Origin: Eledone cirrhosa
Lineage: Eukaryota
NCBI GenBank assembly: GCA_964016885.1
Contig: OZ024748.1
Span: forward strand, 39,060,001-39,124,000
Reading direction: 5' to 3'
DNA: 64,000 bases
In this document: one piece after another, positions 488-47,492 of the stretch
Layout: the number at the start of each line of letters is the position of its first letter
Position numbering within the stretch: the first letter of the stretch is position 1
Translations under genes and position numbers: made by a program
The notes under the pieces: model-generated
The model's database searches: none
Seen by the model: only the letters and a program-made list of their open reading frames with translations
Told to the model about the DNA's origin: nothing

Positions 488-647
<160 letters not shown>

Positions 648-689
648 CATATATATATATAAATATATATATATGTATACCTAAATACA

Positions 690-1386
690 TATATGTATAC
701 ACAGACGTACAGTAGTATGTATATATATACATACATGCACATATATATATATATGCACGTATCGGTTTACCGAACATTTATTATAATGCTTGGTTTGTTT
801 GTTTGTCATGTATATATATATATACATACTACTGTACGTCTGTATACATATATGTATGTACGTATACATACATACATACTTACATTTAAGTAATGCCGTA
901 CTAAGAGTGAGAAATGAAATTTCGTTTCATTCTATTCCATTTATGGTTTTCGGTGTGCCCGGCCGACTGAACTCACTCGATATGCAAATTAGGCTGCTCA
1001 GCCGTTAATATGCATAAGGAAAGTATATACTTTCAGACGTTCAACCATCTGGCAGGAAGGTATACGATGCTGACGATAGCTAATAAGCTTGAAACTAGTA
1101 CATCGTTCCTGTGTCAGTGGTGAACAAAAAGGTGACGTGATTGCCTAAACACTGTACGGCGTAATTCGGGCTGTTTGTTTGTTTACAAACAAACAAACCG
1201 AGCATTATAATAAATGTTCGGTAAACCGATACGTGCATATATATATATGTGTGCATGTATGTATATATATATATACATACTACTGTACGTCCGTATACAT
1301 ATATGTATGTACGTATACATACATGCATACTTACATTTAAGTAAGTGCCGTACTAAGAGTGAAACTGAAATTTCGTTTCATTCTAT

Positions 1387-1390
<4 letters not shown>
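690..1390 (+). mobile_element. Non-coding retrozyme-like element, family A (~450 bp unit, partial tandem plus inverted 5' fragment)
   Basis: catactactgtacgtc...ttcgtttcattctattcca occurs at ~825-938 and again at ~1275-1390; ~690-806 is an inverted copy of ~1186-1300; contains a hammerhead; related copies at 10483-11122 and 43553-44437. Confidence 0.75.
1043..1122 (+). ncRNA. Type I hammerhead ribozyme (family A)
   Basis: Stem I acgatg/catcgt, extended by ggcaggaa/ttcct..gtc; CUGACGA 1070-1076; stem II agct-aata-agct; GAAA 1091-1094; palindromic stem III A-CUAG-U; predicted GUA cleavage after 1100. Confidence 0.9.
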
Positions 1391-1451
<61 letters not shown>

Positions 1452-1566
1452 TAGGAACGAGTAGGACCCCGACGGCTGAGCTCAAGCTGTTTCGACGGCT
1501 AATTCTGGACCAGAATTTGCCGTCAAAACGGCTTGAGCTCAGCCGTCGGGGTCCTACTCGTTCCTA
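1452..1566. repeat. Near-perfect palindrome (~55 bp arms) at the end of an interspersed repeat
   Basis: taggaacgagtaggaccccgacggctgagctcaag ... cttgagctcagccgtcggggtcctactcgttccta; a non-palindromic relative lies at ~55910-56045 in the opposite orientation. Confidence 0.85.
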
Positions 1567-1730
1567 TTACCCACTCTACTACCCTAAGTATTGAGTACTT
1601 TGGTGCGTTATGGTCCATCTGGTTCCTTACCACATTTCCTTCGTTATATATATATATATATATATATACATACATACATACATACATACATACATACATA
1701 CATACATACATACATACATACATACATACA

Positions 1731-3388: not shown

Positions 3389-3930
<542 letters not shown>

Positions 3931-4179
3931 ATAGATATGTTTCTTTATTAGCCACAGGGGCACAAAAGAAGGGGATAAATACAAAGGGGGAAGTTTACAT
4001 ACAATAAAAACGTGTAAAATATTATCACAAATGCAATTTAAAAATTAGTCGATTTTCCCCAATAGGGGGAGACATTACATATGGGTAACACATACCCCCG
4101 AAAAATAAAATGTGCAACCCTCATCTCCAGGAGTACGAAGAGTTTGTACTCCTTTCCTCTCCTCCTCTTTTTCCTCAAC

Positions 4180-4992
4180 CTACAGGCTGATATAGAGAGA
4201 AGGCCCATTCACTCGGGCCATTCTCGCCACTTTCACCCACCTTTCATAAAACTTGCTGGGGTACAGCACCTCTCTCTCCATCCTGATTCTTCTTCCAAAG
4301 TGGTATTTGAAAAAAAGAATCAGTTGTTGGCCGGAGAGAAAGGTGTCTGACCTCAGCCCTTTCAACCTTGTCCACCATACAACCTCTTTCGCCATAGCTA
4401 TCACACAAAGGAAAACCGCCTCTCCTTCGTTTTTGAAGGAGGGTGGCGGTTTGATCATGACAATGGACTCGGTGGTCAACCGGATTGGTCCCACCCGCGA
4501 CAATAGTCGTTCTACATAGCCCCACAGGTCGGTGACGCCCGGGCATTGTATGAATGAGTGCGCGGCGGTTTCTTCGTCTCGCACGCACCTCGGACAGATC
4601 TTTTTTGCAGGGTCCCTGCCCGGGCGCCCATGTCTGTAGAGCTTGTCTCGAACTGGTAGAGCTCCTCGGTAGCACTGCCAGGCCAGGGACTTTTGGAAGT
4701 TGTCCATCGGTCCCGGGCGGAAGGTCCTACCGAACAGACTGGCCAGTTCATCTTCCTCTACGCCTAGAGTTTCACCGAGCGCGTCGTCGCATTTGATGCG
4801 GATCAACCCTCTATAGAATGACGAAGTGGAGTGTCCACTGATCGCCGGGTCCGCCTGCCAGAGGGCTGTGAGGGCCTGAGCACATTCGATGTGCGAGTCG
4901 CCTATTTTCCTCGGTCTTTGCTTGACCCAGGACTCCAGCTCCGTCAGCGAGACAAGTCCTGGGAATGCTCGCCTCACGAACGAGGCCCACAC
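4180..4992 (-). pseudogene. LINE ORF2 C-terminal region with zinc knuckle
   Basis: ALPVRDKL...CPRC...ETAAHSFIQC, typical of L1/Tx1. Confidence 0.88.
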
Positions 4993-6637
4993 CGGTTGTC
5001 CGGTGAGGGTAGAGATACCGCAGCCTGAGCGCGTGTTTGCGCATCGTCAGCCACTGCTTCCCCAGCCCTCCGTTGGAAGGTTGTTGGCAGCAGATGCATC
5101 TTCTCACCAAAGGAGCCCGCCGCTTCCAAAGGAATTGGAAGAGCGCGCGCTCCATTTTGGCGAGCGTTTTGGCTGGACAAGGCACGACGGTCAAGCGGTA
5201 GTAGATGGCGGACGCTATAAAAGTGCTCGCCGCCTCCGGTCGACCTTTCAAGGATAGTTTGCACTCGGCCCACTTCTGGGTGAGTGCAAACACCTTGGCC
5301 GACACCTCGTTCCAGTTTTTCTCCACCTGGAGATCCGGACCAAACCAGAACCCCAGCAGCTTTACCGGTCCTTCCGCCCAGCGTCCGACGACGCCATCGG
5401 AAGGCATCGGTTTGCCTCTCCACGATCTGAGTTGTAAACCGATGGACTTGTCCCGGTTCAGCTTCGCTCCTGTGAACCTTTCGTATTCCTTCAGTAAGGT
5501 GCCGACTTCCTCGATTTGCGAGGCGCTCGACAACATTACTGTCACGTCGTCGGCGTAGGCCATCGCCGCTTTCCGCAGTCCCGGTTCCAGAGGGATGCTC
5601 TGCAATAGCTCCAACTTCCGCAGTAGTGGCTCGAGAGTCAGTACGTACAGAAGGGAGGAGAAAGGGCATCCCTGTTGAATGGATCGCGTGATATGGAACG
5701 GCTCCGAGAGGTAGCCGTTGACCTTGACTCTTGAGCAGATGTTGCTGTTGTGCATTGCAGCAATCCAGCCCCTGAACACGGGTCCGAAGCCTGCCGCCTC
5801 GAGCACCGCATCCAGGTAACGACGGGAAACTCTATCGAAAGCCTTAGGCTGATCCAAGTTGATCAGGGCCCCACCGAAGCCGGGTTTACACCCTACCCTC
5901 TCTATGATGTATCGCATGAGGTGGAGGTTGTCGTGTATGGACCTGGTCGGGATTGCGCATGTCTGCGCTTCCCCCACCAGGTTCTCGACGACAAGCGCCA
6001 GCCTCTTTGCCAACACCTTGGCCAAAATCTGTAACTCTGTGTTTAGCAGAGTTATGGGCCGGAAGTTGCCTATGTCATCTCCCTTATTCTCGTCCTTCCT
6101 GACTAGTGTGACTACGCCCCCGGTCACAGAACTGGGAATTCTCCCGTTCTGTTGCCAGTTGCAATAGACCGCTTCCAGGAGACCTGAGAATAAGTCCGGC
6201 ATTGCTACGTAAAATTCGTAGGGTAGACCGTCGAGACCTGGAGATTTGCGTTTGCCGCATTGGCTCAGCGCGTCCCCTATCTCAGCGGCTGAAATCGGCT
6301 TTTCGCAGAACTTTGCCTCGCTGTCCGAGAGTCGCGGTAGGCCGTCGAGGTATGGACCGAAATCCATAACCCCTCCCGGCGCGCCGCCCCTCCCGAACAG
6401 TTGAGCAAAATGCCGCTGAAAGGCCGCACACATCTGCTTCGGTTCATGTATCACGCGTCCGTTTTGGTCCTTCAAAAACCGAATCGTGGACTTGTTGCCA
6501 CTTTTTGCTTCTGTCACTCGGGCCCAGCTAACAGCTTTGGCTCCCTCGTTTCCCAGAGCACGTATTTTGCTTCTGTAAACGCAGCCCTCGTGCTTTGCGT
6601 CGAAGAACTGGTCCAAGGCCTTTCTCGTTGCTAGCAC
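4811..6637 (-). pseudogene. LINE ORF2 reverse transcriptase domain
   Basis: KSPGLDGLP, NFRPITLLN, LDQPKAFDRV, IQQGCPFS, AYADDVTV; frameshift near 4990. Confidence 0.95.
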
Positions 6638-6713
6638 GCTGACTACATTGCCACTTCTAATTGCCTCTTCTATCTACCAGTTCTTTCTTGGTTCTATTTC
6701 TATCTAACGCTAA

Positions 6714-7607
6714 TTATTTACTAAAAACTAACGAGTCTAATCTAACTGCCCTCTTGAGAGAGTACCGCCATCTGTTGTTGACAATGGCCCCTGTCAAGTG
6801 CTGTTTAACTAAAGTGCTAAGCCGTCTACTGTAGGCTTTGCATGTTGGTAACGACAAGTTCAGCTTCCAGCAGCCGGGTCCTTGTCTATGGGTTCTATCA
6901 AGGTTGACCATGCGGGTCACTAGTTTGTGATCTGAATAGGCAACCATGAACATTTGTGGACAGCATAACATGTCCCTATCCTTATTTCTAACTAGAACCC
7001 TATCTAGGTACGATCTAGATGTTCCGCTACGATTAGTCCACGTCCACAGTGGCACAGTCGTAAAATCTAGTCGATATCTGTCGGCCAGGTCAAATCGGTC
7101 GATTAACTGTTTGAGGCTGTTACACCATCCTTTAACGGTACATGCTCCCACATAGTCCCAACGTGCATCTAGGAATCCATTCCAGTCCCCCACTAAAAGC
7201 AAGGAGCGGGACGTTCCCAGAAAAGTCTCTAGACGTTTGAAGAAGTCTGGCCGCGGTGTCTCGGATGGGGCATATGCGGCCACCCACCTGAAGGCTCCAC
7301 CTTCACTACCGTCAACGTCTAGGACCACCAGTCGACCCTCCGGGTCCAGATGTACCGTTTGTGTTACGAGGCCCAGGTGTTTCCGCAGTAAAACGGCAAC
7401 CCCGCCCCCACCCCCCGGCCGACAGAGAGATTCGTAGTTCTCAAAGTCATCGAAGATGGGGGCCAGCTGTCGCTCGCTGTGGATCCTGGACTCGCAAATG
7501 GCTACTACATCCATACTGTGCGACCTGAGGTCGTTTAAGAGTTTGCCCTGTTTCCAGGGCATCCCCAGGCCGCGTACATTCACACATCCAACTCTTATAT
7601 TGGCCAT
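6714..7607 (-). pseudogene. LINE ORF2 apurinic-like endonuclease domain
   Basis: Motifs NVRGL, AICES, GDWN, SYLDRVLV, YSDHKLV. Confidence 0.92.
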
Positions 7608-7809
7608 GTTGGTGCTGAAAAGTTAAAAGAGGAAAAGAGATCATTCAGCCTTCGTCTCCTGGGGACCAGGCTGCACGATTTCCATGGGGGTGTTAGAGGG
7701 GTTGTCTGGGTGGGTGGTGGTTTCCGCCGGGGTGGGGACGGAGATGTTTGGTGGGGTGGGGGTGTCTGGGGTGAGGGTGGGGAAATTGTTTAAAGGACGC
7801 GGTTAATGG

Positions 7810-8921: not shown

Positions 8922-9249
8922 ATATATATATATATATGATTATTAAAACCAGTTACTACAATAATTCCATATTAGATACGTACGTTTCGTTAGCCCTGGA
9001 GACGAACTTATTTACTCAAAAAGGAAATAAAGAACAGGTAAAGAGAGAATAGCCCTCAAAACAAGGGCAGATAATTTAAATGATATAAGGGAGACTATTT
9101 GACCGAAAAGAAGGTTAACAAACGCTAAATTAGCTAATACATATGAGGGGACTAGAAAAAATTCGATAAATTAATGTAGAACAATTTGGGGAGGCAAAAA
9201 CGCATACATTAAGGAGGCCAGTTCTTTAATAGTTACTTTGTAGGTGAGA

Positions 9250-9972
9250 ACATCATGAGACAACCTCTGTATCTGTGTTGAGTGGTTTGTTGTTGTGGTG
9301 GTGATTATTCAATATCAACCATTTCTTGTCATTGCATAATTTGCAAACTTTGAGCCTATTCATATATGGTCAAGAAGTTTCTAGTATCTTCCATTTGATG
9401 GAGAAGTCTAAATTCTTGTTTTTGAGTGCCTTAATTTATTCGCTAAATTTCTGTTGCTTCTTTTATTTGGGTATCTTAATGTCATTTCATGATTGTGGAA
9501 ACGATTTAAACCGGATCTCAGACATACCAGAATATTTCCAGGATTCCGTTCAAAGGTGTTGACTCAATGGAGAGACCTCAACTTCGTATATTTTCACTGG
9601 AATGTTGGACTGTTGATCCAGCAGGGCTTTTACAAGAATGACTATATACTTTGGGGCTCTGTTGTTTGTGAAGGAAGAGTAACTTCAAATTCCTGGCACA
9701 GGAGCATCCAATTTTGACCGTATGACGGTTAAAAGTCTGGTGATATTTGCTTTATTTCTAGTTTTTTCTTATTGGTATTTGGGGGAGTGTCTTGGAGTGT
9801 AGGAAATATTCTCAGAGAAGCCGGTATTGCGTAAGGCTGAATTACAGTAGGGTCTGCCTCCCCTATCAAAAATGGTGTGGTTTGAAGAGAAACTAGAGAT
9901 CCACTTGCTAATATTCTTACCTAAATGTTTTAAGACTATGAGGCGGGCAGAAAATCTTCGATACATACGCAA
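9250..9972 (-). mobile_element. Decayed Penelope-like element (post-RT region and GIY-YIG C-terminus)
   Basis: KNISKWISSFSSNHTIFD..YCNSALRNTGFSENISY matches the PLE at 36200-36340; manual translation gives SIKWKILETS*PY..VCKLCN near 9330-9400. Confidence 0.75.
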
Positions 9973-10482: not shown

Positions 10483-11122
10483 ATAAGTATATACACGTAC
10501 ATACATATAATGTATACAGACGTACAGTAGTATGTATATATATATATATATACATACATGCACACACATATATATATGTACGTATGGATTCACCGAACAT
10601 TTATTATAATGCTCGGTGTGTTTGTAAACAAACATCCCGTATTAAGACGTAGTGTCTAGCAACCACGGTTGCTCTTTTGTTCAAAACTGACAAAGGAACG
10701 CTGTACTAGTTTCAAGCTTATTAGCTATCGTCAGCAACGTATACCTTCCTGCCAGATTGTTGAACGTATATACTTACCTTATGCATATTAACGGCTGAGT
10801 AGCCCAATTTGCATATCGAGTGGGTTAATCGGCCGGGTGCACCGAAAACGATAAACGGAAAAAAATGAAACGAAATTTCATTTCCCACTCTTAGTACGGC
10901 TGTTACTTAAATATAAGTATATACACGTACATACATATATATGTATACAGACGTACAGTAGTATGTATATATATATATATATACATACATGCACACATAT
11001 ATATATGTACGTATGGATTCACCGAACATTTATTATAATGCTCGGTGTGTTTGTAAACAAACATCCCGTATTAAGACGTAGTGTCTAGCAACCATCGTTG
11101 CTCTTTTGTTCAACACTGACAT
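10483..11122 (-). mobile_element. Retrozyme-like element, family A, ~1.5 units of a 430 bp repeat
   Basis: 10483-10692 is directly repeated at 10913-11122; hammerhead in between. Confidence 0.8.
10679..10765 (-). ncRNA. Type I hammerhead ribozyme (family A)
   Basis: Reverse complement: acgttg CUGACGA uagcuaauaagcuu GAAA cuag UA cagcgu. Confidence 0.9.
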
Positions 11123-11205
11123 ATATATATATAAACACTGACATATATATATATAAATCAGGAAAGAAGAGTGACGCGGTTTGCTATACAAAAAAGGTTT
11201 TTAAT

Positions 11206-11507: not shown

Positions 11508-11625
11508 ATATATATATCAAAAATTAATTTAACTAAATTAAATTAAAAGAGTCATGTCTGAGGCATGCGTCATATCCACTGTAGAATAAGCTCAAAGATT
11601 CCAATGAATAGATCCGAGCATTTTA

Positions 11626-11929
11626 TATCAACTAGAAACTGATTGACATATATATATATTTAAAATAAACACATGAAACAATCACAGGGGATAATTTGTA
11701 AAGTGTGTAATCACTCACAGCTAGGTAGGTAACTAATTAAAGTTTAACTAGAACTTCAAATATTACCTTTTAATCATTTTTTAAAAGGTAATATTTGAAG
11801 TTCTAGTTAAACTTTAATTAGTTACCTACCTAGCTGTGAGTGATTACACACTTTACAAATTATCCCCTGTGATTGTTTCATGTGTTTACTTTAAATATAT
11901 AAATATGTCAATCAGTTTCTAGTTGATAT
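11626..11929. repeat. Near-perfect palindrome, ~145 bp arms
   Basis: atatcaactagaaactgattgaca...aatattaccttttaa | ttaaaaggtaatatt...tgtcaatcagtttctagttgatat; one arm also occurs singly at ~28043-28107. Confidence 0.92.
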
Positions 11930-12088
11930 CTGTATATATATTTATATATATACACTATTTATATATATATAACTATTTTTCCCATTTTGACGCTATAGTC
12001 ACTTATATATTATGGAATACTGTTGGCTTTTTGCTACAATATTTTCTATACCTTTCATTTATATATATTTATATATATATATATATAT

Positions 12089-12127
<39 letters not shown>

Positions 12128-12129
<2 letters not shown>

Positions 12130-13227
12130 GATTCCACTACAGCAATGAAGAGGCGGATTTTCAGGTCTCTATGAAGGTCCGACTTCCACACCGATCTCAA
12201 GCTGTGACACGCCGCCCAGGCCTTGCTCTTCCTCTCAACCACATCATCTTCCGTATTCCCAATCTTTGCTCCCAAATACAGGAAGTCCTCAACCAATTCC
12301 AGCGGCTTCCCGCCTACATTAGTGATCCCCTCTGGATTCTCAACATTCTCTACCAGATATTTTGTTTTAGTCTCATTCATTCTCAGCCCCACACTCATCG
12401 ACACAGTCTCAACCTCCCGCATCAAATCCTCTGCCTCCTTCACTGTATTTGTCACCAAAACTATGTCGTCGGCAAATTCAGCATCCGATACCTTTTTCGC
12501 CCCAACTCTCCTGCTCTGAGCCGGTGCTACAGTAAAGCCAGAGTCCTGGTGTTTCTCCAGTGCAAGGCGCATACAATAGTCCACTACGATGATAAAAAGG
12601 TAGGGAGCCAATGTATCTCCCTGGAGCACTCCAGCCAGTATCTCAAAGAACTCTGTCATCCCATCAGGTGTAATGACTTGGGCTTTGGTGTTGGTGTAGA
12701 GCAGTGATATCAGGTCCACTATCCTCTTGGGGATTCCATAAGCCTGTAAGATCTTCATCAGGCAGTAACGGTCCACAGAATCAAAGGCCTTCCTAAAGTC
12801 AATGAAAACCATGCTGCTGTATGGGTCTGAGACTTGGACACTGACCAAGAGACTCACTCAGATGGTGGATGGGTGCTACACGAGAATGCTGAGGATGGCT
12901 CTGAACATTAATCAGTATACACTGAGGATGAAAAACCCAGAGCTGTATGGGAGCATCCCAAAAGTCAGCTCAAAAGTGACACAGAGGAGACTGAGGTTGG
13001 CTGGACATGCTCACCGACATCCAGAGTTGACATTGCACTCAGTGCTCCTTTGGGAGCCCCTACATGGACACACTAGAAGAGGAAGACCAAGGTTAACATA
13101 TGTTGATGCCCTAAGGACAGACACTGGTCTGTTGGAGATGCAGGATATGGCAGCGATAATGAGGGACAGAGACCGCTGGAGAGAACTCGTCCATGGATCT
13201 CGGGAATTTTACCCGCCTTAGATGTAG
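12128..13227 (+). mobile_element. RTE-clade LINE fragment with 5' inversion and TSD
   Basis: Minus-strand RT (FIDFRKAFDSV, GVLQGDTLAP, FADDIVL) at 12128-12810; plus-strand C-terminus (LLYGSETW..RRGRPR..DRDRWR) at 12811-13221; atatatgcagat at 12121-12132 and 13228-13239. Confidence 0.9.
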
Positions 13228-22360: not shown

Positions 22361-23008
22361 AAACGCAGAACTGGATATTTCAAAAAACGTTGCAACCGGA
22401 GGAAGACAGGAAGACGATACTTTGGTTCGTGGTAACGTTCGCTGGCAAAGAACGGGAAAAAACGAATAATAATTAATAGGAGCGGTGAAAAACAATTACG
22501 CGCAGAGACAAAACCACGTTTATGGTATAAAAGAGGTCGTAGACTAATGTTCTCTTAGGTGGTGCATAGAGACGTTCTCTGGCAATGAACGAAAAAACGA
22601 AGATAATAAGTCATATGTGGAGCGTGGAGAACAATAGCACGCAAAGACAAAACCACGTAAATGGTATAGCAGAAATCGTAGACTAAAATTCTAACTAGGA
22701 GACCAAATGAATCTCCGCTACAGAGTTAAGAACAAAGTAAATAAATACGATACAGAAGTAATAGAAACAAATAAATACATACACGCAAACAGATACGTAC
22801 ATACACAAGCATACGCAAAATCATCAGCACCGTATACCCATCTGCCAGATAGTTGAACGTTCGAAAGTATACACACATACTTACATTTAAGTGCCGTACT
22901 AAGAGTGAGAAATGAAATTTCGTTTTCATTTTATTTCAACTTATATATATATATATATATATATATACAATATTAAATAAATGGAAACTATATTTATAAA
23001 ACCATATT

Positions 23009-23074
23009 TATTTCATTATATATATTTCAGGGATAACATATTAACAATATGCTATGCCTTCCTCAGACAAAATA
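23009..23074 (-). ncRNA. Type I hammerhead (family C)
   Basis: Inverted copy of 27400-27465. Confidence 0.82.
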
Positions 23075-24457
23075 CAATATAAACAGTTTTATAGATAAAT
23101 AGATTCGACATACCGTAACAACATCTACTTGCATTTGAGAAGGTTGATTTGGTTGTGACAAAATTGTACACAGAGAGAAAGAAAGAGAGAGAGAAAGAGA
23201 GAAAAAGAGAGAAAAAAGGAAAGAAAGACAGAAAACGAAGAAAAAGAAAAAGAAGAAATGCATGGAACAAAATGGAAAGATAGATAAAGAGAAGAACTTC
23301 ATGTAAAGAAACAGAAAGATATATATATATATAGAGAGAGAGAGGAAATAGAGATAGATACATATATAGAAAGCTAGGTAGAGGGACGACTGTTGAATAA
23401 CGTATCAATGATACATTTATTTATTTATTTATTTATTTAGCTCTAGTATTAATGTAAGGGAGATATATGGAGGGAAAACCAGCTGTTATATAGGGAGAGA
23501 AAAAATATAGAGAGAGAAAAAAAGAGAGAGAGAAAATTCAAAAACATCCAGACACAGGCGAGGCGTACAAACCTCTGTTTTAATGTAGAGGTACTAGTAT
23601 CTACAAAACCAGCCTCTGCATTGCAAATATCAGTATTCCTGAATGAGATATGTATCCACAATGTGTGAAAATTAATGATCTTATGTTTAGTTTTTTAAAA
23701 AAATTTCTATGTTTATGTGATAATTACAAACATGTATGTGAATGTACATGATCAATTCTGCAAACCCTAAGTTCACGGAAAGTATTCTCAATGCGGTATA
23801 AAAATTTAAGTATACATATATGTGTATATAGAGTCAATATTACTATTTCCGTCTCTACTCTACAAGATTATCTATCAAGCAAAGATAGAGCAGATTTCAA
23901 TATACTAATAAAAATAAAAATAAAAATATATCGGAAACAAAACTAAACTAAAAATAACAATAATAATAATAAGTAATAATAAAATAGAAAACTAAGAAAT
24001 ATTACGAAAGAATATAACATATTAAAAATATTACATATTAAAAAATTTACATATTAAAAATATAAAAAATAAAAATTAGGAAATACTACAGTAATAAAAA
24101 TAAAATAAACCACAAAGATCAACCCTTCAAAATTAATTGACAATATATTGCCAAGTTCATTATAAACATCAGAGTCGAAAAACAGATAAAGCCAAAAATT
24201 ATCTATCAAATCGCATCTAGCAATGATCATTTCAAAAAGTATAGGATGCCCAATTTGGTCTACATGTGTTCTTATATTTAATATAGAAGTTTATCTAGTG
24301 TAACGTTTATTCGAAATATTTGGAGCATCAACTTTTAGGATAGCTTAATTTTTCATGAAGAATGTTTAAATAAATAAAATAAAAATAAAAAGAGTAAAAA
24401 GAGAATCAAAGATTTATCGGCTAGTTTCCCATATAATTATAAATCAAACTAAATATA

Positions 24458-25123
24458 CTACATTTTAAATTTAAATTTATATTTAAACGTTGAGTTTAAT
24501 CTATGTTTGCAACAACTGAATAAATTTGTCCGTAGATTAAGGGAATTTTTAGATTTTAGTATAAAGAATATCTCCTCTGCGCAGAGGTCACATGTCTCAG
24601 AGGATGAATTAAAAGGAATCCCTCTTGAGACTATATTCCAAGCCGTCGAATATCTAACGTTATCTAGCTTAAGTTGCCATAGTACGCCTGATAGTGCCGT
24701 TGAAGATTTTTTACTTGGATCTGTGAAAGAATTCTTGTGGTTATTATAGCGAAGTTTAAATTCCGTCGATGTGGAACCGACGTAGTTAAAAGAATTAGAG
24801 TCAGTATTAACATTACAATTGTATACTATATTTTTAACTAAGCAGTTGTTATTTAACGGACATTTAGATCTATCTCTACAGTTACATTTGTTAACTTGTA
24901 TATTATTTATGCTGTTATCACTAGGTTTTAAGTTCCTATTATTTATTCTATTGATATTTTGTGCTAAATTTTTGGTGGATGAGTAGGTTAATTTAATTGT
25001 ATGTCTATTGAAAATTGAGTGATATCTATGTGTTCTAGGGAAGCGATTATCAAGAGCTTTAAAAAATAGTTTAGCGATGTGGGTTTTAATGTTTAGTGAG
25101 AAGGGGGGGGGGGGGCAAACCAA
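24458..25123 (-). pseudogene. PLE linker plus GIY-YIG endonuclease
   Basis: PPFS..KTHIAKLF..RFP..H..IFNRHTIKLTYS; CNCRDRSKCPLNNNCL; IVY..YVGST..FKLRYNNH; CDLC..E; CKH. Confidence 0.92.
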
Positions 25124-25253
25124 ATTATGTTCCTAGTTTTATTTCTTTTTTGGCCTTTGGAATTATTGTAATGCTTTCTATTATAGTTAAGGATGTTGCC
25201 GTAATTAAAAAAGTTGTTACTTTGTTTAGTTTGTCTATCATTATCTATGTACA

Positions 25254-25413
25254 GAGGGTCGGACGCCATGCTTTCCAGCATAGTTACGTCCCTTTACGAT
25301 CTGAGTTCAAATCCTGCCGAGGTTGACTTTGCCTTTCATCCTTACGGGGTAGATAAAATAAAGTACCAGTAATGCACTGGGTAATTGCTGGCCTTGTGCC
25401 TAAAGTAGAAACA
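25254..25413 (+). mobile_element. 5'-truncated SINE inserted in the PLE, with 14-bp TSD
   Basis: attatctatgtaca at 25240-25253 and 25414-25427. Confidence 0.9.
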
Positions 25414-27399
25414 ATTATCTATGTACACAATCTTATCAGCATATCCTGCTCTAGCTAATGCTTCATTGTAGTATTGGGCTTTTTCGTCGAAAATCTTTCT
25501 ATTCGACGAGATCCTAGAGATACGTTTTTGGACAGAGTTTACTATAGTGTATATATAACAGCATAAATAATATACAAGTTAACAAATGTAACTGTAGAGA
25601 TAGATCTAAATGTCCGTTAAATAACAACTGCTTAGTTAAAAATATAGTATACAATTGTAATGTTAATACTGACTCTAATTCTTTTAACTACGTCGGTTCC
25701 ACATCGACGGAATTTAAACTTCGCTATAATAACCACAAGAATTCTTTCACAGATCCAAGTAAAAAATCTTCAACGGCACTATCAGGCGTACTATGGCAAC
25801 TTAAGCTAGATAACGTTAGATATTCGACGGCTTGGAATATAGTCTCAAGAGGGATTCCTTTTAATTCATCCTCTGAGACATGTGACCTCTGCGCAGAGGA
25901 GATATTCTTTATACTAAAATCTAAAAATTCCCTTAATCTACGGACAAATTTATTCAGTTGTTGCAAACATAGATTAAACTCAACGTTTAAATATAAATTT
26001 AAATTTAAAATGTAGTATATTTAGTTTGATTTATAATTATATGGGAAACTAGCCGATAAATCTTTGATTCTCTTTTTACTCTTTTTATTTTTATTTTATT
26101 TATTTAAACATTCTTCATGAAAAATTAAGCTATCCTAAAAGTTGATGCTCCAAATATTTCGAATAAACGTTACACTAGATAAACTTCTATATTAAATATA
26201 AGAACACATGTAGACCAAATTGGGCATCCTATACTTTTTGAAATGATCATTGCTAGATGCGATTTGATAGATAATTTTTGGCTTTATCTGTTTTTCGACT
26301 CTGATGTTTATAATGAACTTGGCAATATATTGTCAATTAATTTTGAAGGGTTGATCTTTGTGGTTTATTTTATTTTTATTACTGTAGTATTTCCTAATTT
26401 TTATTTTTTATATTTTTAATATGTAAATTTTTTAATATGTAATATTTTTAATATGTTATATTCTTTCGTAATATTTCTTAGTTTTCTATTTTATTATTAC
26501 TTATTATTATTATTGTTATTTTTAGTTTAGTTTTGTTTCCGATATATTTTTATTTTTATTTTTATTAGTATATTGAAATCTGCTCTATCTTTGCTTGATA
26601 GATAATCTTGTAGAGTAGAGACGGAAATAGTAATATTGACTCTATATACACATATATGTATACTTAAATTTTTATACCGCATTGAGAATACTTTCCGTGA
26701 ACTTAGGGTTTGCAGAATTGATCATGTACATTCACATACATGTTTGTAATTATCACATAAACATAGAAATTTTTTTAAAAAACTAAACATAAGATCATTA
26801 ATTTTCACACATTGTGGATACATATCTCATTCAGGAATACTGATATTTGCAATGCAGAGGCTGGTTTTGTAGATACTAGTACCTCTACATTAAAACAGAG
26901 GTTTGTACGCCTCGCCTGTGTCTGGATGTTTTTGAATTTTCTCTCTCTCTTTTTTTTCTCTCTCTATATTTTTTCTCTCCCTATATAACAGCTGGTTTTC
27001 CCTCCATATATCTCCCTTACATTAATACTAGAGCTAAATAAATAAATAAATAAATAAATGTATCATTGATACGTTATTCAACAGTCGTCCCTCTACCTAG
27101 CTTTCTATATATGTATCTATCTCTATTTCCTCTCTCTCTCTATATATATATATATCTTTCTGTTTCTTTACACGAAGTTCTTCTCTTTATCTATCTTTCC
27201 ATTTTGTTCCATGCATTTCTTCTTTTTCTTTTTCTTCGTTTTCTGTCTTTCTTTCCTTTTTTCTCTCTTTTTCTCTCTTTCTCTCTCTCTTTCTTTCTCT
27301 CTGTGTACAATTTTGTCACAACCAAATCAACCTTCTCAAATGCAAGTAGATGTTGTTACGGTATGTCGAATCTATTTATCTATAAAACTGTTTATATTG

Positions 27400-27465
27400 T
27401 ATTTTGTCTGAGGAAGGCATAGCATATTGTTAATATGTTATCCCTGAAATATATATAATGAAATA
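27400..27465 (+). ncRNA. Type I hammerhead (family C)
   Basis: uauuuugu CUGAGGA aggcauagcauauu..aauauguuaucccu GAAA uauaua UA augaaaua. Confidence 0.82.
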
Positions 27466-27592
27466 AATATGGTTTTATAAATATAGTTTCCATTTATTTA
27501 ATATTGTAAATATACTCCAAATATTTGTCGAGTGCTTTTATATCAGTTATAAATATTTACTAGTTGTAACACAACAATTTAAATACAACTTT

Positions 27593-27638
<46 letters not shown>

Positions 27639-28604: not shown

Positions 28605-28684
28605 TAGAAAGTGAGGTTTTTTTTTTTTTTTTGTTTTTTTTTACAAATTGAAAAATAACCGAGGTGTCCTACACGAGTGAAAGT

Positions 28685-28977
28685 ATAAAGAAAAAGAGAT
28701 GAAATCGAAAATGCAACTGGAGTCTTATTTTTTTTTTTAAATATATATATTTATTTGGTTCCTTTACCGGTTTCGCAGTTCTTCTGCTTTTCAAAAGTAG
28801 AGTTGAGATGGAGGGTCTGTGGTTTTTCTCACAGATGTGATAAAAACCACAGACCCTCCATCTCAACTCTACTTTTGAAAAGCAGAAGAACTGCGAAACC
28901 GGTAAAGGAACCAAATAAATATATATATATTTTTTTTAAATAAGACTCCAGTTGCATTTTCGATTTCATCTCTTTTT

Positions 28978-28983
<6 letters not shown>
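28685..28983. repeat. Near-perfect palindrome, ~145 bp arms
   Basis: Same peptide MVPLPVSQFFCFSKVELRW predicted on both strands. Confidence 0.92.
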
Positions 28984-29848: not shown

Positions 29849-30309
29849 TTATACGGAACAGGAAAGTCAACCGTATGAACACGCATGCGCAGAAACGGTG
29901 ACGTCACCCAGGCAATAAAAAACTGCGTGCGAGAGGTATAAGGGAGATAACTGCGAAAGTCCGAAAGGTTCTAGTTGATAAGAAAATTAGGATGTTGTTC
30001 TTGTTCAATCCGGAGCTTTGTAGTTAAGTAAGATATGTTTCTAGGCATGTGGACAACGTGTGAAGAATTCATTCCTTGAGTTTAGGCAATCGCTATTGTG
30101 CAATCTCTTTAGAATATTTATTCGTTCATCAATACATAGTCCACAAGACAGATTGCCCCTTGCGTATGGCTTGGACTTAGTGATGGCTTTCCATCGAATG
30201 GGGTAGCCTATACTTGAGTCCTTGAGGGACCATACGTGGCTCGCGAGTTTCGTGGATGATCGTTTGGCCGGGTGCCTAAAGGTCGACTGATGGTTCAGGA
30301 AGCGTATAA

Positions 30310-30365
30310 CCATGTCCATTACGAGTTGAGGATCCGCTAAGGTGAAACAATTGTTCTCGGTATGG
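30310..30365 (+). ncRNA. Type I hammerhead (family F), C3U mutated
   Basis: cgag UUGAGGA uccgcuaaggu GAAA caauug UU cucg. Confidence 0.6.
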
Positions 30366-31343: not shown

Positions 31344-31408
31344 TATTTTATTATATATATTTCAAGGGCGACCAAGCCAATCTTGGTGCGCTTTCATCAG
31401 ATAAAATA
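31344..31408 (-). ncRNA. Type I hammerhead (family C)
   Basis: uauuuuau CUGAUGA aagcgcaccaag..cuuggucgcccuu GAAA uauaua UA auaaaaua. Confidence 0.85.
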
Positions 31409-33534: not shown

Positions 33535-33857
33535 TGTAATAAACAACATAACGCAATTATTCCATTTACCAGTGGTTTCTTAAAAGCAAAAAATGTTGCT
33601 TTCAATCATCAGAATGAAAAAATCCTGGTGTATTTATTGATATTGGATTCTAAAAACAAAAATGCAATCTATATGAAAGTGAGGCTGGAGAAAGAAGAAG
33701 CAAAGGAAAAATAAAATAAAAACACACATGCAAACACACACACAATTATATACATACACACATATATATATATATATACATACACACATACATACACACA
33801 CACATATACACATATATATGTGTATATATATACATACATATACACATACATACATAT

Positions 33858-33921
<64 letters not shown>

Positions 33922-33960
33922 GATATTAATAAATGGAAACTATATTTATAAAACCATATT

Positions 33961-34025
33961 TATTTCATTATACATATTTCAGGGATACCAAATTAAATTA
34001 TGGTATGCCTTCATCAGACAAAATA
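33961..34025 (-). ncRNA. Type I hammerhead (family C)
   Basis: Inverted copy of 34350-34414. Confidence 0.82.
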
Positions 34026-34349
34026 CAATATATAACAGTTTTACAAATAAGCTTTGACGTACCCTATTAAAATGCAGCCATTATTTTTAGAAGCCATCCG
34101 GATAGTGAGTTGTTTATATTATTTTAATAAGTCATACTGTTAAGGACAATTAGAAAAAGACGGAGAGAAAGAAAAAGACGGAGAGAGAGAAAGAAAAAAC
34201 GTGGAGAAATATCGTCTTTTTCTAATTGTCCTTAACACTATGACTTATTAAAATAATATAAACAACTCACTATCCGGATGGCTTCCAAAAATAATGGTTG
34301 CATTTTAATAGGGTACGTCAAAGCTTATTTGTAAAACTGTTATATATTG

Positions 34350-34414
34350 TATTTTGTCTGATGAAGGCATACCATAATTTAATTTGGTATCCCTGAAATA
34401 TGTATAATGAAATA
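34350..34414 (+). ncRNA. Type I hammerhead (family C)
   Basis: uauuuugu CUGAUGA aggcauacca..ugguaucccu GAAA uaugua UA augaaaua. Confidence 0.82.
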
Positions 34415-34542
34415 AATATGGTTTTATAAATATAGTTTCCATTTATTAATATCGTATATCTACTCCAAATACTTGTCGAGTGCTTTATATCAGTTATAAA
34501 AATATTTACTTGTTGTATCCCAACAATTTTAAATAGAACTTT

Positions 34543-34582
<40 letters not shown>

Positions 34583-34707: not shown

Positions 34708-34743
<36 letters not shown>

Positions 34744-34867
34744 GTTCTATTTAAATTGTTGGGATACAACAAGCAAATATTTTTATAACTGATATAAAGC
34801 ACTCAACAAATAATTGGAGTAAAAGTACGATATTAACAAATGGAAACTATATTTATAAAACCATATT

Positions 34868-34932
34868 TATTTCATTATACATATTTCAAGGACACCAAGT
34901 TAAATTATGGTGTGCTTTCATCAGATAAAATA
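34868..34932 (-). ncRNA. Type I hammerhead (family C)
   Basis: Inverted copy of 35052-35116. Confidence 0.82.
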
Positions 34933-35051
34933 TAATATAGAGCAGTTTTATAAATAAATGTTGACATACCCTTAAAGAATGCAACCATTACTGTAATGGT
35001 TGCATTCTTTAAGGGTATGTCAACATTTATTTATAAAACTGCTCTATATTA

Positions 35052-35116
35052 TATTTTATCTGATGAAAGCACACCATAATTTAACTTGGTGTCCTTGAAA
35101 TATGTATAATGAAATA
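35052..35116 (+). ncRNA. Type I hammerhead (family C)
   Basis: uauuuuau CUGAUGA aagcacacca..ugguguccuu GAAA uaugua UA augaaaua. Confidence 0.82.
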
Positions 35117-35547
35117 AATATGGTTTTATAAATATAGTTTCCATTTGTTAATATCGTATATATATATATATATATATATAAAGCTTTCATGAGCGCCCTT
35201 TTTTTTAGGTAAAAAGAAATTCAAACACACACACACAACACACACACACACACACACACGCGCACACACACACAAGCACACAAATAAACATACATATCTT
35301 TACTTTCTTTATTCAATAGAAAATTTGAATTCTGACACCCCAGCGAACTAACCATATTCACTGAACCAGAACAATTCTCCCATCCCATTTCTCTTGACCA
35401 TTATCTTTTACTTATCATAAAATTCTCTAAAAAGGCTACAGAATGGATTTCCAAATAAGGGCGCGATAATTTAATGAAAACTTGTTCACGTGACAGCCAT
35501 AATTTCATTTATAACCAATCAAATTACGTTTATTAAAAAAAGCCTTC

Positions 35548-36594
35548 GTGAGCCCCCTTTTTTTAAGTAAAAAGAAATTCAAACCATCATATATGAAAAA
35601 ACCACCTGTGACACCCCACCCCCCTTGTTTGAAGAACTTTATGATACTACCTGGGAAAAGTAGGACCAGCTTTATCCAACTGGATATCGCAGGCTACTAC
35701 TCCTCAATCTCACCCATAGTACTCAATAAGACCCTATTTTTAGCGATGTCCAATACGGACCTAACCCGAGAGGAGGTGAGCATCATCCACGCCGCACAAA
35801 AGACCTTGATCCGTTTCGATGGAGACCTGTGGACCAGGAGTGATTGGCCAAATAACTTTGACATCACGATGGGCTCCAGCGACTCCGCACAGGTAACGGA
35901 CCTGGTTGGGCTCTTCCTGCTGAAGCACATAAAATATGAAATCCCCTGCCTGGGCGGCGGATTATATCGTGACGATGCTCTCTTCACAGTCTATGACCAC
36001 AGCACCACTATGGTGGAGAGAATGAAGAGGCGTATTCGCCATTTCTTTAAGAACCAGCTCAGTATCGAATTAGACCCAAATAGAAAGGTAGTTAACTTCC
36101 TAGACACCACCCTAAACCTGAACACCGAGCAATACTATCCCTACCACAAGCCCAACGAGAAACTTGTGTATGCTAACGCCAAGTCAAACCACCCTAGATC
36201 CATAACCAAGGCCGTGGTGAAGAGTGTCTTGGACAGGATCTCCAGCCTGTCTGCAAATAAGGAAATCTTCGATAACAACGCGGAATATTACAACGCAGCT
36301 CTAAATAAGGCGCCACATGGCCAAAATATATCATATAGTCCGAGGCGCCGGGATGGAGATGGCCCAACGGACGCCCCCACCCACGTTGTCTGGGAGGTGG
36401 CGAATCCTAACAATACAGGCAGAATGGCAACAACTAAGCACCATGAGCCCGACACCACCACATGGGCGAGGGTGACGAGTACGCATAACCATGGGGGGAA
36501 ACCCAATACGAGTAGCGGTCTCAGGGGTGATACTAACCACCCCGGGCCCGACGCCACCAGCCGCCAGACACGTGGGGGGACCATCCCATCGTAG
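35548..36594 (+). pseudogene. PLE reverse transcriptase (partial)
   Basis: YRDD catalytic motif and flanking PLE RT motifs; the first ~25 codons are flanking DNA. Confidence 0.92.
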
Positions 36595-37006
36595 AGCTCC
36601 ACGCGCGGGCAACAACCACCCCACATATTCGGGCCGAGAAGGTAGCAAAACACATAGCGCCCAAAGGGGAAGCAATAATGCGGGAACCACTAGCAACCCA
36701 ACAACTCCCCGACAGCCCACCCACATAGGAGTAGACGCAGAAAAATCACGTGGTACAACCCACCCTACTCAGCGGCCCTAAAGAACAGCTTGGCCCGCTC
36801 GTTCTTTTGAGCACTTGATAAATGCTTCCCGAGGGACCATAGATACCACAAGATCTTCAACAGACACACTGTGAAGCTCGCGTATTCTACCACGAGAAAT
36901 GTGGCCCAACACATAGCTAGCATCAACCGAAGTAGACTTAAAAACCATACACAACCAGAAGCTTCCAATATAAGCACCCGGCAGAACCACGTGGAAGGAA
37001 AGAAGG

Positions 37007-37609
37007 GTGGTCCCAGTGCCCACCCAAGAAACCCAAACAGACCCAGGGACCACCCCCCCCCACACACACACACCGGGACCGGGGGAAGACCACCATATAA
37101 CACGTAACGGGAACCCCACACTAGGCACGCAGAGATCGACCACCTTCTGCAACTGCAGAAACCCCGAATTATGCCCCCTTGGTAATGAATGCCTTAGAAT
37201 GAACCTAATATACGGATGTAGAGTAAAAAACCCCAACTCTGAACACCTTTACATAGGAGCCACATCAACGAGCTTTAAAGATCGATGGTATAACCATCGC
37301 CATTCCCTCAATGGGGAGGACAAATGGAAAAGTACAGCTCTTTCCGATCTGATCTGGAAGCTTAAACTGGACAGGACCCCGTACTCTCTGGTCTGGTCCA
37401 TAATCAGGAAAGTACCACCTGATAAAGGGGGATCTGGCCTCTACAAACTATGTCTGAGCGAGACCCTTGAGATACTAAGAGGTGGAAGCAGCCTGATAAA
37501 CCTCAAGACCGACTTCTTCGGGACATGTAGACACCTCAGGGCCGGGACCTTCCTCAAGCTATATGGACAGCAACAACACCATAGGTTGGGAACTCCACTC
37601 AAGCTATAG
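37007..37609 (+). pseudogene. PLE GIY-YIG endonuclease (frameshifted from RT)
   Basis: CNCR..CPL..CL, LIY..LYIG, TALSDLIWKLK, LCLSE, CRH. Confidence 0.92.
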
Positions 37610-38893: not shown

Positions 38894-38948
38894 ACTGCCT
38901 GAAGAGGTCACAGCCAAAGATGGCTGTCACCGAAATATATATAGCAGT
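38894..38948 (+). ncRNA. Type I hammerhead (family D)
   Basis: acugc CUGAAGA ggucacagcca-aaga-uggcugucacc GAAA uauaua UA gcagu. Confidence 0.9.
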
Positions 38949-42389: not shown

Positions 42390-43142
42390 TACCAGTGGTT
42401 TCTTAAAAGCAAAAAAATTTTGCTTTTAATCATCAGAATAAAAAAATCCTGGCGTATTTATTGACGTTGGATTTTAAAAACAAAGATGCAATCTATATGA
42501 AAGTGAGGCTGGAAAAGGAAGAAGGAAAATAAAAATAAAATAAAAACACACATGCAAACACACACACACACACACAATTATATACATACACATATATATA
42601 TATATATATATATACATACACACATACATACACACACACATACACACACACACACACACACATATATGTGTATATATATACACATACACATACATACACA
42701 CATAAATATCAACATATCCATACATACACATACAAATATACAACCACACACATATATATATATATATATACACATACACATACATAACCATACACACATA
42801 CATATACATACATTCATACATACATACACACAATCATACGTATATACACACGTACATACATACACATACATACACACATATATATATATGCATACATACG
42901 CATGCACAAAAATATAAATATATATTTGATGCCTGTATCGCTGTCAACATATTTTTTCTTATATTTATTTGTGTGTGTGAGTATGTAGAGGTGTGTGTAT
43001 ATATTTCTATTTTTGTGCATGCGTATGTATGCATATATATATGTGTGTATGTATGTGTATGTATGTACGTGTGTATATACGTATGATTGTGTGTATGTAT
43101 GTATGTATGTATGTATATGTATGTGTGTATGGCTATGTATGT

Positions 43143-43371: not shown

Positions 43372-43552
43372 ATTGTGTGTGTGTGTGTGTTTGCATATGT
43401 GTTGTTATTTTATTTTTCCTTTCCTTCTTCCTTTTCCAGCCTCACTTTCATATAGATTGCATCTTTGTTTTTAAAATCCAACGTCAATAAATACGCCAGG
43501 ATTTTTTCATTCTGATGATTGAAAGCTAAATTTTTTTGTTTTTAAGAAACCA
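42390..43552. repeat. Inverted duplication, ~500 bp arms rich in microsatellite
   Basis: ~42395-42915 mirrors ~43005-43552; single relative at 33530-33870. Confidence 0.85.
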
Positions 43553-44437
<885 letters not shown>

Positions 44438-45751: not shown

Positions 45752-45808
45752 ACTGCTATATATATATTTCAGTGACAGCCATCTTTGGCTGTGACCTCTT
45801 CAGGCAGT
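45752..45808 (-). ncRNA. Type I hammerhead (family D)
   Basis: acugc CUGAAGA ggucacagcca..uggcugucacu GAAA uauauaua UA gcagu. Confidence 0.87.
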
Positions 45809-46139: not shown

Positions 46140-47492
46140 ATTAATAAAAACAATGAATAAAAACAAAGAAACAGTTCCTTATATTAACAAATTCATCATT
46201 TTACGATCGTTTCTAGGATATATATGTGTGTGTTGGTATGTATATCATATAGATCTATGTAAACATTTTACAAACCATCAGAGGAAATATACATACGATA
46301 CACATATATATGCTGAATATATGAAATAATGATATTTGTTTATTGAAAAACACCAACAAAGATTTAATATAATAAGTCTGTTTGGGAACAGGTTTTTAAT
46401 TGACCAATAGAAGAGTAGTAAGTGGTCAAGTTGATAGAATAGTAGTAGTAGAAATTTAATTTAGGAGTAGAGGAATGCAGACTTAAGTTTTGAATGGAAA
46501 TAATACTTTGAATGAAAAGATTACTTTGGGGATGAAAAGAGGTCAAGCCGGTGAAAGGTACACGAAAATTTTATGTTATTAAAGAATAATGCTAATGTTA
46601 AAATCGAAGGAGAATAAAATTTTAGGATAAATGTGTTAGTGAGAAATACCAATCTTATTAAAATCATAAGGAATTTACATCTATAAAAAGAAATTAAATT
46701 AATTTAATAAATTTATATTAATTCATATAGATGTGATAAATAAGAGCTAGATGTTATTAAAGAATGTTGTTAAAAACGGAGGAAAAAAAATTGAGGGGTG
46801 GGGTAAATGTATTAGTGAGAAATAACAAACTTATATAGACTACAAGGAATTTAGATACATAACAGGAAATTAAAATAGTTTATATGTATACTTATAGGTA
46901 TTAATTTTAGGAAAAGATAGCTGTAACAGGGAAATAAAATTATGAAGTTCTCAGTAGTAAAATACTAATTATAGGTTAACTAAATTTAAAAAAAGCTAAT
47001 TATAAGAATTTGTAATATAAAAGTGTATATTAATTAGGTTTATAATATTTGAAAGTTCTTCTAATTCTATGATTGCACGATATAATTAATTCTCGTTGCT
47101 TATTTAATAGGATATCCTTAGATTTCATTATTTCAAAAAGTTCCTGGGAACATAATCTACACTCATATCTGTTATTTTGATAAGGGGTGGCCCTTCTGAG
47201 CACACTCCAGGTCAGGTTATAATCGATATACTTTTTTCTATAATTATTAATTATTTCAGCCAAGGATGTTATATTAGCTAATGCGGCATTTCTAAACTGT
47301 GTTTGTGGGTATTAAATCTTACTTTAAATTGGTTAGAAGTAGCTCCTATATATGAATAAGTTGAGTCCTTAGTGCTAATTTTACATTTATATACTATGTT
47401 ATTAATAAGGCAATTTCCTTTTAATGGGCAATTTGCATTGTTTCTCAAGGATCAATTTCCCCCTCGTCCTTCTGTATATGAAAGTCTGCTGT
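46140..47492 (-). mobile_element. PLE (Naiad-type) GIY-YIG end plus 3' UTR
   Basis: Manual translation NCPLKGNCLINNIVYKC..YIGATSNQFKVRFN.H (47300-47450); LTWSVL..PY..CRLCSQE..SCNH (47030-47263); decayed family-B hammerhead at ~46190-46330. Confidence 0.85.

What the first reader, a model, noticed from the sequence alone, without database searches (positions are those of the whole stretch)
690..1390. Family A: coding-free 430-450 nt partial-tandem unit with a hammerhead, a candidate circRNA-forming retrozyme
Seen: three loci (690-1390, 10483-11122, 43553-44437, plus a fragment at ~22840-22940) share one unit, start at different points in it, and two exceed one unit length. The core, stem II and A-CUAG-U are invariant while flanks diverge. 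Known: non-LTR retrozymes are tandem hammerhead repeats that yield small circular RNAs. Inference: these are cDNA copies of a circular or multimeric self-cleaving RNA mobilised by PLE enzymes.
Basis: partly seen in the sequence, partly recalled or inferred. Interest (0 to 1): 0.82.

Follow-up and report, generated by a model that had tools for sequence, protein, structure and literature searches.

The report
Protein-free Penelope parasite carrying a hammerhead
This 430-450-base repeat codes for no protein, carries a hammerhead ribozyme motif and shows the insertion marks of Penelope-like jumping genes, so it is likely a small parasite of those elements (a known kind, called a retrozyme), but whether it forms a circular RNA is untested.

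Summary
The repeat family and its hammerhead are real. Three loci and a fragment share a non-coding 430-451 nt unit with a type I hammerhead (predicted cut 1100/1101). Core, stem II and stem III show no variant in contigs of four public runs (0 of 26 positions against 40 of 288 elsewhere).

Copies differ at their 5' ends, but six of seven arms with an intact 3' end stop at one of two fixed sites about 57 nt apart. Two loci are head-to-head inversions in (AT)n with the extra 57 nt on one arm only. That is the Penelope-like element (PLE) 'tail' signature, and the window's coding PLEs share it. Each locus has one hammerhead with a palindromic, dimer-type stem III, so none can release a unit-length RNA itself.

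The unit closes on itself with no ORF, so it is not just the end of a coding PLE. Verdict: a non-autonomous PLE or non-LTR retrozyme, probably in an octopod. The template is longer than one unit or closed; circle versus uncut multimer is unresolved. New member of a known kind.

The parts
672..806 (-). Locus 1 inverted arm, 5'-truncated (unit +80 to about +215), ending at the short 3' site and running into (AT)n
807..1390 (+). Locus 1 direct arm, 584 nt = 1.29 units of 451 nt, ending at the long 3' site
1064..1106 (+). Type I hammerhead: 6-bp stem I, CUGACGA, U-U then 4-bp stem II, GAAA, palindromic ACUAGU stem III, predicted cut 1100/1101; helix I is predicted to extend (1049-1054 with 1112-1117)
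1334..1390 (+). 57-nt 'tail': present on the direct arm, absent from the inverted arm; it is also the sequence that follows the short site inside the tandem
495..671 (.). (AT)n/(AC)n tract at the left end of locus 1 (target site, inferred)
1391..1449 (.). (AT)29 tract at the right end of locus 1
10483..11121 (-). Locus 2, single arm of 1.49 units of 430 nt; 5' end 12 nt downstream of the cut position, 3' end at the short site; (AT)n on both sides, 22-nt duplication at the 5' junction (11112-11157)
10698..10740 (-). Locus 2 hammerhead, predicted cut 10704/10703, U-G in stem I
43553..43666 (+). Locus 3 left piece (+54 to about +165), joined to a broken hammerhead of another family (D); same 5' breakpoint as the inverted piece
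43889..44111 (-). Locus 3 inverted arm (+54 to +283), ending at the long 3' site (58-nt tail)
44110..44435 (+). Locus 3 direct arm (+319 through the cut site to +221), ending at the short 3' site; hammerhead at 44185-44227 with an A-C mismatch in stem I
22818..22940 (.). Fragment: inverted arm (about 22886-22818, third subfamily, stops just after CUGAUGA) head-to-head with a direct arm (22872-22940) ending at the long site
982..989 (+). ATGCAAAT octamer kept in loci 1-3 (also 10807 minus strand, 44111); possible promoter element, a lead only
   Evidence: 9 occurrences in the window, 3 in family A

Best explanation
Family A is a non-coding 430-450 nt repeat with a type I hammerhead motif and Penelope-type insertion marks, and it is likely a non-autonomous parasite (non-LTR retrozyme) copied by the reverse transcriptase-endonuclease of a coding Penelope-like element. 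SHOWN: the unit, the motif, the (AT)n flanks, 5' truncation, two fixed 3' ends about 57 nt apart, head-to-head arms with the extra piece on one arm only, and arms that run through an intact cut site for up to 1.49 units. INFERRED: a source copy elsewhere with two or more hammerheads is transcribed. A PLE protein nicks both strands of an (AT)n tract and starts reverse transcription internally at two sites, one per strand. The two unfinished cDNAs are joined head to head at 2-nt microhomologies. The template must be longer than one unit or closed. I put an uncut multi-unit transcript slightly ahead (about 50%) of a circle re-ligated after double-hammerhead cleavage (about 40%) and template jumping (about 10%). 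The ribozyme would cut only as a dimer through ACUAGU pairing, so the single-hammerhead loci in this window are likely dead ends for making a monomer or circle.
For: (1) Tail signature: in 8 of 10 palindromic insertions examined, one arm ends within 4 nt of the microsatellite and the other carries 57-107 extra nt; this includes both family A pairs (57, 58 nt) and three family B pairs (88-90 nt), one of which holds a PLE endonuclease ORF. The other 2 do not have this form. Published PLE insertions show partial tandems, an inverted 5'-truncated copy and a one-sided tail (PMC8557442; PMC3846280), and the tail matches two internal RT start sites in vitro (PMC11167929). (2) The long 3' end recurs in contigs: 67 contigs of run X1 and 3 of X4 go into (AT)n behind 944, and 53 more X1 contigs do so in the variant form behind 931. 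(3) Coding PLE remains lie in the window: RT 35638-36393 and EN to 37570; EN at 24488-25126 and 25530-25985. (4) Short form: contigs of X1 and X5 bridge 944-980, and the share that runs on into unlike sequence is 0 (X1, 10,412 contigs), 0.04, 0.01 and 0.24 (X6, 5 contigs). (5) Constraint on the ribozyme: 0 of 26 core/stem II/stem III positions vary against 40 of 288 others, Fisher p=0.025. (6) The unit folds strongly as a circle, z=-8.0 and -8.3 against 40 shuffles, GC 36-38%, like described retrozymes (PMC7229834).
Against: No autonomous partner was found: a profile search of the window gave only family A and low-complexity hits, and no genome is held. No locus with two hammerheads was seen. 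Position 10.1-11.1 is U-U, not the usual G-C (PMC4209133). The stem I pair 1067/1103 is not strictly kept: T at 1067 is commoner than G at 1103 in X1 and X5, which implies many U-U copies. Rfam gave no hammerhead match. The antisense strand also folds well (z=-7.6, -6.1), and part of the folding comes from (TA)/(TG)-rich palindromes. The constraint test misses 8 hidden substitution rows and 1 hidden indel row, and variants are not independent. Tails here are longer than the published 30-40 nt. Only 20 of 224 loose-end rows were shown, so a rare coding parent could be hidden. In the 2026 preprint only 1 of 9 retrozyme dimers cleaved in vitro.
Confidence: 0.8

Rival explanations
1. One reading: the insertion template is a 430-450 nt circular RNA made by double self-cleavage and ligation at 1100/1101. 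PLE RT starts at a fixed site on the circle and runs round more than once. This is a sub-case of the best explanation.
For: All 3 arms that reach the cut site cross it intact, and 2 exceed one unit with a seamless junction. The repeats within a locus are of the same subfamily. The ribozyme is constrained. Circles were shown for coral, mussel and axolotl retrozymes (PMC7229834), and a circle was proposed to explain PLE partial tandems (PMC4209133).
Against: The same facts fit an uncut multimer. In the one in-vitro PLE system, unprocessed RNA was the dominant substrate and hammerhead mutants inserted normally (PMC11167929). No two-hammerhead source locus was seen. Staggered starts are explained by 5' truncation.
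Confidence: 0.35
2. The copies are 5'-truncated ends (pLTR plus tail) of a long coding PLE, and the short tandem is an accident of truncation.
For: Families B and C in the window lie 1.3-1.4 kb downstream of PLE endonuclease ORFs with the same end architecture. Most dispersed PLE hammerheads are such stumps (PMC4209133).
Against: After the tail, the sequence returns to the hammerhead within about 110 nt along the same path in loci 1 and 2, which belong to different subfamilies. Contigs of two organisms bridge that stretch, and no foreign junction is among the 20 loose ends shown. An origin by internal deletion of a PLE remains possible and is part of the best explanation.
Confidence: 0.12
3. 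A DNA-level repeat (minisatellite, MITE or Helitron-like foldback) whose hammerhead is incidental.
For: Palindromic loci and AT-rich hairpins.
Against: The inverted arms have variable inner ends and unequal outer ends, unlike terminal inverted repeats. They share the one-sided tail with PLE-linked families. The hammerhead descriptor gave 0 hits in 100 shuffles.
Confidence: 0.05

Closest known systems
Metazoan non-LTR retrozymes (Cervera and de la Pena 2020, PMC7229834; mussel 350-390 bp repeats; axolotl dimer-type hammerheads; Li et al. 2026, bioRxiv 10.64898/2026.07.22.740005)
   Same: Non-coding repeat unit, GC under 45%, type I hammerhead of canonical size (helix I 6 bp, II 4 bp, III 2 bp with palindromic loop), highly self-paired, coexisting with PLEs.
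   Different: Unit slightly longer than the 170-400 nt given for invertebrates (within the 51-972 bp of the preprint). Loci here are dispersed, hold 1.5 units or less and one hammerhead each, so none meets the preprint's 'active' definition. Here the PLE link comes from insertion marks; the preprint used co-occurrence and pLTR homology. No RNA data.
Endonuclease-positive Penelope-like elements: pLTR, inverted 5'-truncated copy, tail (PMC8557442; PMC3846280; PAc in vitro, PMC11167929)
   Same: Partial tandem, head-to-head inversion, one-sided tail, two 3' end sites, (TA)n targets, hammerhead in the repeated end.
   Different: No ORF. Tail 57-58 nt instead of 30-40. Hammerhead has canonical helix sizes, not the min-HHR type (long helix II, short helix I).
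Non-autonomous Chlamys PLEs such as MRC1 (PMC8557442)
   Same: Non-coding PLE derivatives forming pLTRs and head-to-tail copies.
   Different: Green algal; most Chlamys lack canonical hammerheads; they resemble an autonomous family at the 3' end, whereas no partner was identified here.

Membership tests
Non-LTR retrozyme | Type I hammerhead motif in the unit | tested here: met
   3 of 3 main loci. Departs by U-U at 10.1-11.1; no Rfam match.
Non-LTR retrozyme | Short non-coding unit, GC under 45%, highly self-paired | tested here: met
   430-451 nt, GC 0.36-0.38, z about -8; no PLE protein hit.
Non-LTR retrozyme | Tandem of at least two units with complete hammerheads | tested here: inconclusive
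   Not met at any of the 4 loci in the window (longest 1.49 units). The rest of the genome is not held and contigs are too short.
Non-LTR retrozyme | Self-cleavage | not testable with these tools
   Only motif and constraint.
Non-LTR retrozyme | Expressed as unit-length linear and circular RNA | not testable with these tools
   No run with raw RNA reads was available to lay.
Non-autonomous Penelope-like element | Partial-tandem and head-to-head inverted, 5'-truncated insertions | tested here: met
   loci 1 and 2 partial tandem; loci 1, 3 and the fragment inverted.
Non-autonomous Penelope-like element | Tail at one end only; two 3' end sites | tested here: met
   (57 and 58 nt, longer than published); long site seen again.
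Non-autonomous Penelope-like element | Insertion in (TA)n or AT-rich targets | tested here: met
   All intact 3' ends abut (AT)n; perfect (AT)n of 6 or more units is 6.6% of the window.
Non-autonomous Penelope-like element | Sequence shared with the end of an autonomous PLE | tested here: inconclusive
   None within the window; genome not held.
Autonomous PLE (pLTR fragments) | RT plus GIY-YIG ORF between the repeats | tested here: not met

The most novel reading that the evidence does not exclude
Family A is an abundant circular-RNA retrozyme of octopods whose genomic copies record PLE target-primed copying directly off the circle. A PLE protein dimer would start at two fixed sites on the RNA, one for each DNA strand, and roll past the re-ligated ribozyme junction. 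That would tie retrozyme circles to PLE enzymes by insertion marks rather than co-occurrence, and give a 430-nt substrate for testing whether circles cause PLE partial tandems.
Probability: 0.3. Interest if true: 0.68.

Novelty: new member of a known kind. Interest (0 to 1): 0.4.

Why it matters
Two questions are open in the papers read: which enzyme moves animal retrozymes (PLEs are proposed from co-occurrence and pLTR homology, mainly in vertebrates), and how PLE partial tandems arise (circle, uncut multimer or template jump). This family shows the PLE insertion signature on a retrozyme-type unit in an invertebrate. It is short enough for a clean in-vitro test with circular against linear template. 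I found no description of cephalopod retrozymes in the library (searches; no 'hammerhead', 'ribozyme' or 'retrozyme' in the main text of the O. vulgaris repeat paper). The kind of element is known, so it is not surprising in itself.

Tried and rejected
Rfam: nothing at gathering threshold in the window; no hammerhead family among 122 weak matches in 600-1500. The miRNA-like hits there come from (TA)/(TG) repeats and are rejected.

Expression: no RNA holder listed; this is no evidence either way. Run X4 is of unrecorded kind and was not used for expression. Depth figures were not used as copy numbers. The short 3' site (about 882) lies at the edge of the laid stretch and could not be seen there.

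Intron idea: AAG|GTAAGT in loci 2 and 3 (GA in locus 1 at 1019-1020) and a pyrimidine-rich CAG at 1115-1117 would enclose the ribozyme in a 99-nt intron. None of the 5 joints listed skips it; not pursued.

Promoter: the octamer at 982 occurs 9 times in the window. The newt satellite 2 snRNA-type promoter was seen only as a citing passage, and that an octamer belongs to such promoters is recalled. A lead only.

Differences between the two repeats within a locus (about 3-4%) do not separate circle from multimer. L1-type twin priming on one RNA was considered; the one-sided tail shared with coding PLEs fits two RT start sites better.

The motif was absent from JGI metagenome and IMG/VR contigs. 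No genome is held. No earlier finding by place or sequence. Supplements of the other papers were not opened.

Full report
SETTING. The window is 35% GC and rich in (AT)n microsatellites and retroelement remains. The only named relative of a PLE reverse transcriptase in it is from Argonauta hians (1 of 15 hits, 43% identity). An octopod host is therefore likely; this is an inference. No whole genome is held.

OBSERVATION. Three loci and a fragment share one unit. I number the unit from the predicted cut (+1 = first base after GUA, locus 2 numbering, 430 nt). Locus 1 is an inverted arm (806 to about 672; +80 to about +215) joined head to head to a direct arm (807-1390; 584 nt, period 451). Locus 2 is one minus-strand arm of about 640 nt (+12, through the cut site, to +221). 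Locus 3 has a piece at 43553-43666, an (AT)n tract, an inverted arm 44111-43889 (+54 to +283) and a direct arm 44110-44435 (+319 to +221). The fragment at about 22818-22940 is also head to head. No PLE protein matches these loci at E<=10, and the longest stop-free frame is 85 codons.

THE RIBOZYME. Each main locus has one type I hammerhead: 6-bp stem I, CUGACGA, a U-U then 4-bp stem II, GAAA, ACUAGU, A. A strict descriptor found 14 motifs in the window and none in 100 block shuffles. Two are family A; the locus 3 copy failed on a stem I mismatch. Stem III has two pairs around a 2-nt palindromic loop. That architecture is described as inactive alone and active as a dimer (PMC4209133, main text read). 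Rfam does not recognise it. In contigs of four public runs laid on 870-1240, no listed variant falls in the 26 positions of core, stem II and stem III, against 40 of 288 elsewhere in 895-1225 (p=0.025). Variation within the motif sits at N7, in loop II and at one stem I pair. Caveats: 9 variant rows were hidden; that stem I pair is probably often U-U; U-U replaces the usual G10.1-C11.1. Cleavage is untested.

THE ENDS. The 5' ends scatter, but six arms stop at one of two sites: about +215-223 or +276-283. Two arms fit neither (43553-43666 and the fragment's inverted arm). In both inverted pairs, one arm has the short end and the other carries 57-58 more bases. The long end recurs outside the window: 67 contigs of run X1 and 3 of X4 pass into (AT)n behind position 944. 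The same one-sided extension (57-107 nt) is present in 8 of 10 palindromic insertions I examined, including three of hammerhead family B, one of which encloses a PLE endonuclease ORF; 2 did not have this form. Partial tandem, inverted 5'-truncated copy and one-sided 30-40 bp tail are the described marks of PLE insertion (PMC8557442, passages; PMC3846280, passages). In vitro, a PLE protein nicks and extends both strands of AT-rich DNA and starts at two internal RNA sites that delimit the tail (PMC11167929, main text read).

NOT JUST A STUMP OF A CODING PLE. In families B and C the hammerhead lies 1.3-1.4 kb behind an endonuclease ORF. In family A the tail leads back to the hammerhead along the same short path in loci 1 and 2, which differ at about 10% of positions. 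Contigs of runs X1 and X5 (two organism labels) bridge that stretch. The share of laid contigs that runs on into unlike sequence is 0 in X1 (10,412 contigs), 0.04 in X4 (124), 0.01 in X5 (55) and 0.24 in X6 (5). The well-supported loose ends are unit variants or (AT)n; two single-contig ends in X6 are foreign (20 of 224 rows shown). A rare coding parent is not excluded, and none was found in the window. At least three subfamilies exist; the fragment's inverted arm carries the variants of the third.

MECHANISM. Most likely a PLE protein acts in trans on the unit RNA, nicks (AT)n, starts at the two sites and leaves truncated cDNAs that are joined head to head (inferred). All three arms that reach the cut site cross it intact, so the template was uncut or re-ligated. 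The sequence cannot separate these. For an uncut multimer: unprocessed RNA was the dominant substrate in vitro and ribozyme mutants inserted normally. For a circle: the ribozyme is constrained, the unit folds strongly (z about -8 as a circle, with the antisense strand nearly as strong), and circles are shown for coral, mussel and axolotl retrozymes (PMC7229834, passages and sections 14 and 17). I put them at about 50% and 40%, with template jumping at 10%. Locus 2 begins 12 nt after the cut position, which would fit an RNA whose 5' end was made by cleavage, but it is a single case. With one hammerhead each, these loci could not release a monomer; a source with two or more is inferred. Expression could not be tested.

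COMPARISON. It works like a non-autonomous PLE and fits the description of non-LTR retrozymes. The tandem-of-two, cleavage and circRNA criteria remain open. A 2026 preprint argues that animal retrozymes are non-autonomous PLE derivatives from co-occurrence and pLTR homology, mainly in vertebrates; only 1 of 9 dimers cleaved in vitro (10.64898/2026.07.22.740005, parts 1-3 of 5 read, supplements not seen). Searches and a term search in the O. vulgaris repeat paper (PMC13282606, passages) showed no cephalopod retrozyme; the library is incomplete. Earlier notes of this scan describe similar PLE-type insertions in other genomes; they are unchecked and are not counted as support.

VERDICT. Observation partly confirmed, interpretation partly supported. 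New member of a known kind. Its value is the PLE insertion signature on a short retrozyme-type unit, with longer tails than published, which makes the circle-or-multimer question testable. Interest 0.40.

Noticed in passing
window 1452-1644, 11518-11932, 22968-27594, 28605-28980, 33920-34545, 34740-35156: Six more head-to-head palindromic insertions in (AT)n, each with a 78-107 nt extension on exactly one arm. Tails are two to three times the published 30-40 nt, and no such pair had two equal ends, which suggests the two RT start sites are always used one per strand.
   Followed up: partly
window 23017-23066, 27408-27457, 31352-31400, 33969-34017, 34358-34406, 34876-34924, 35060-35108 (B); 38899-38943, 45757-45803, 63506-63551 (C); 33567-33612, 42390-42436, about 43510-43553 (D): Three other type I hammerhead families. 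B and C have palindromic AT-rich stem III and lie 1.3-1.4 kb behind PLE endonuclease ORFs. B and D also show two 3' ends (+49-52 or about +137; +37 or about +103).
   Followed up: partly
window 43500-44113: A family D hammerhead is cut off inside stem III and joined to a family A piece whose 5' breakpoint and adjoining bases equal those of the inverted arm 560 nt away. Either a later local inversion-duplication or an A-to-D template switch in one event; unexplained.
   Followed up: partly
window 35515-37609 (+); 24458-25132 (-) and 25548-26015 (+); 9238-9939, 30017-30319, 47033-47544 (-): Broken PLE RT and GIY-YIG coding remains in RT-then-EN order with a cysteine-rich linker; candidates for the helper family, clade not determined.
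   Followed up: partly
window 52659-54420: About 1.8 kb of degenerate (TTAGGG)-like repeats next to a 1-kb LINE piece (51607-52661) that is 96% identical to 3928-4985.
   Followed up: no
window 3928-7622 (-), 12069-13221 (-), 47493-50071 (-), 59404-60728 (-): Other retroelement remains: a near-complete frameshifted LINE with endonuclease-like and RT frames, RT fragments of another LINE type, and an LTR-type pol region (type labels from recall).
   Followed up: no
window 982-989 and 1016-1024, 1107-1117: Octamer kept in all three loci; splice-donor-like and acceptor-like sites flank the ribozyme (donor intact in loci 2 and 3). Possible promoter and intron; no support found.
   Followed up: partly
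runs X5, X6, window 870-1240: The family, with the same subfamily variants, is held under two further organism labels (29 and 19 of 29 bins). Related species, mixed samples or transfer cannot be told apart.
   Followed up: no
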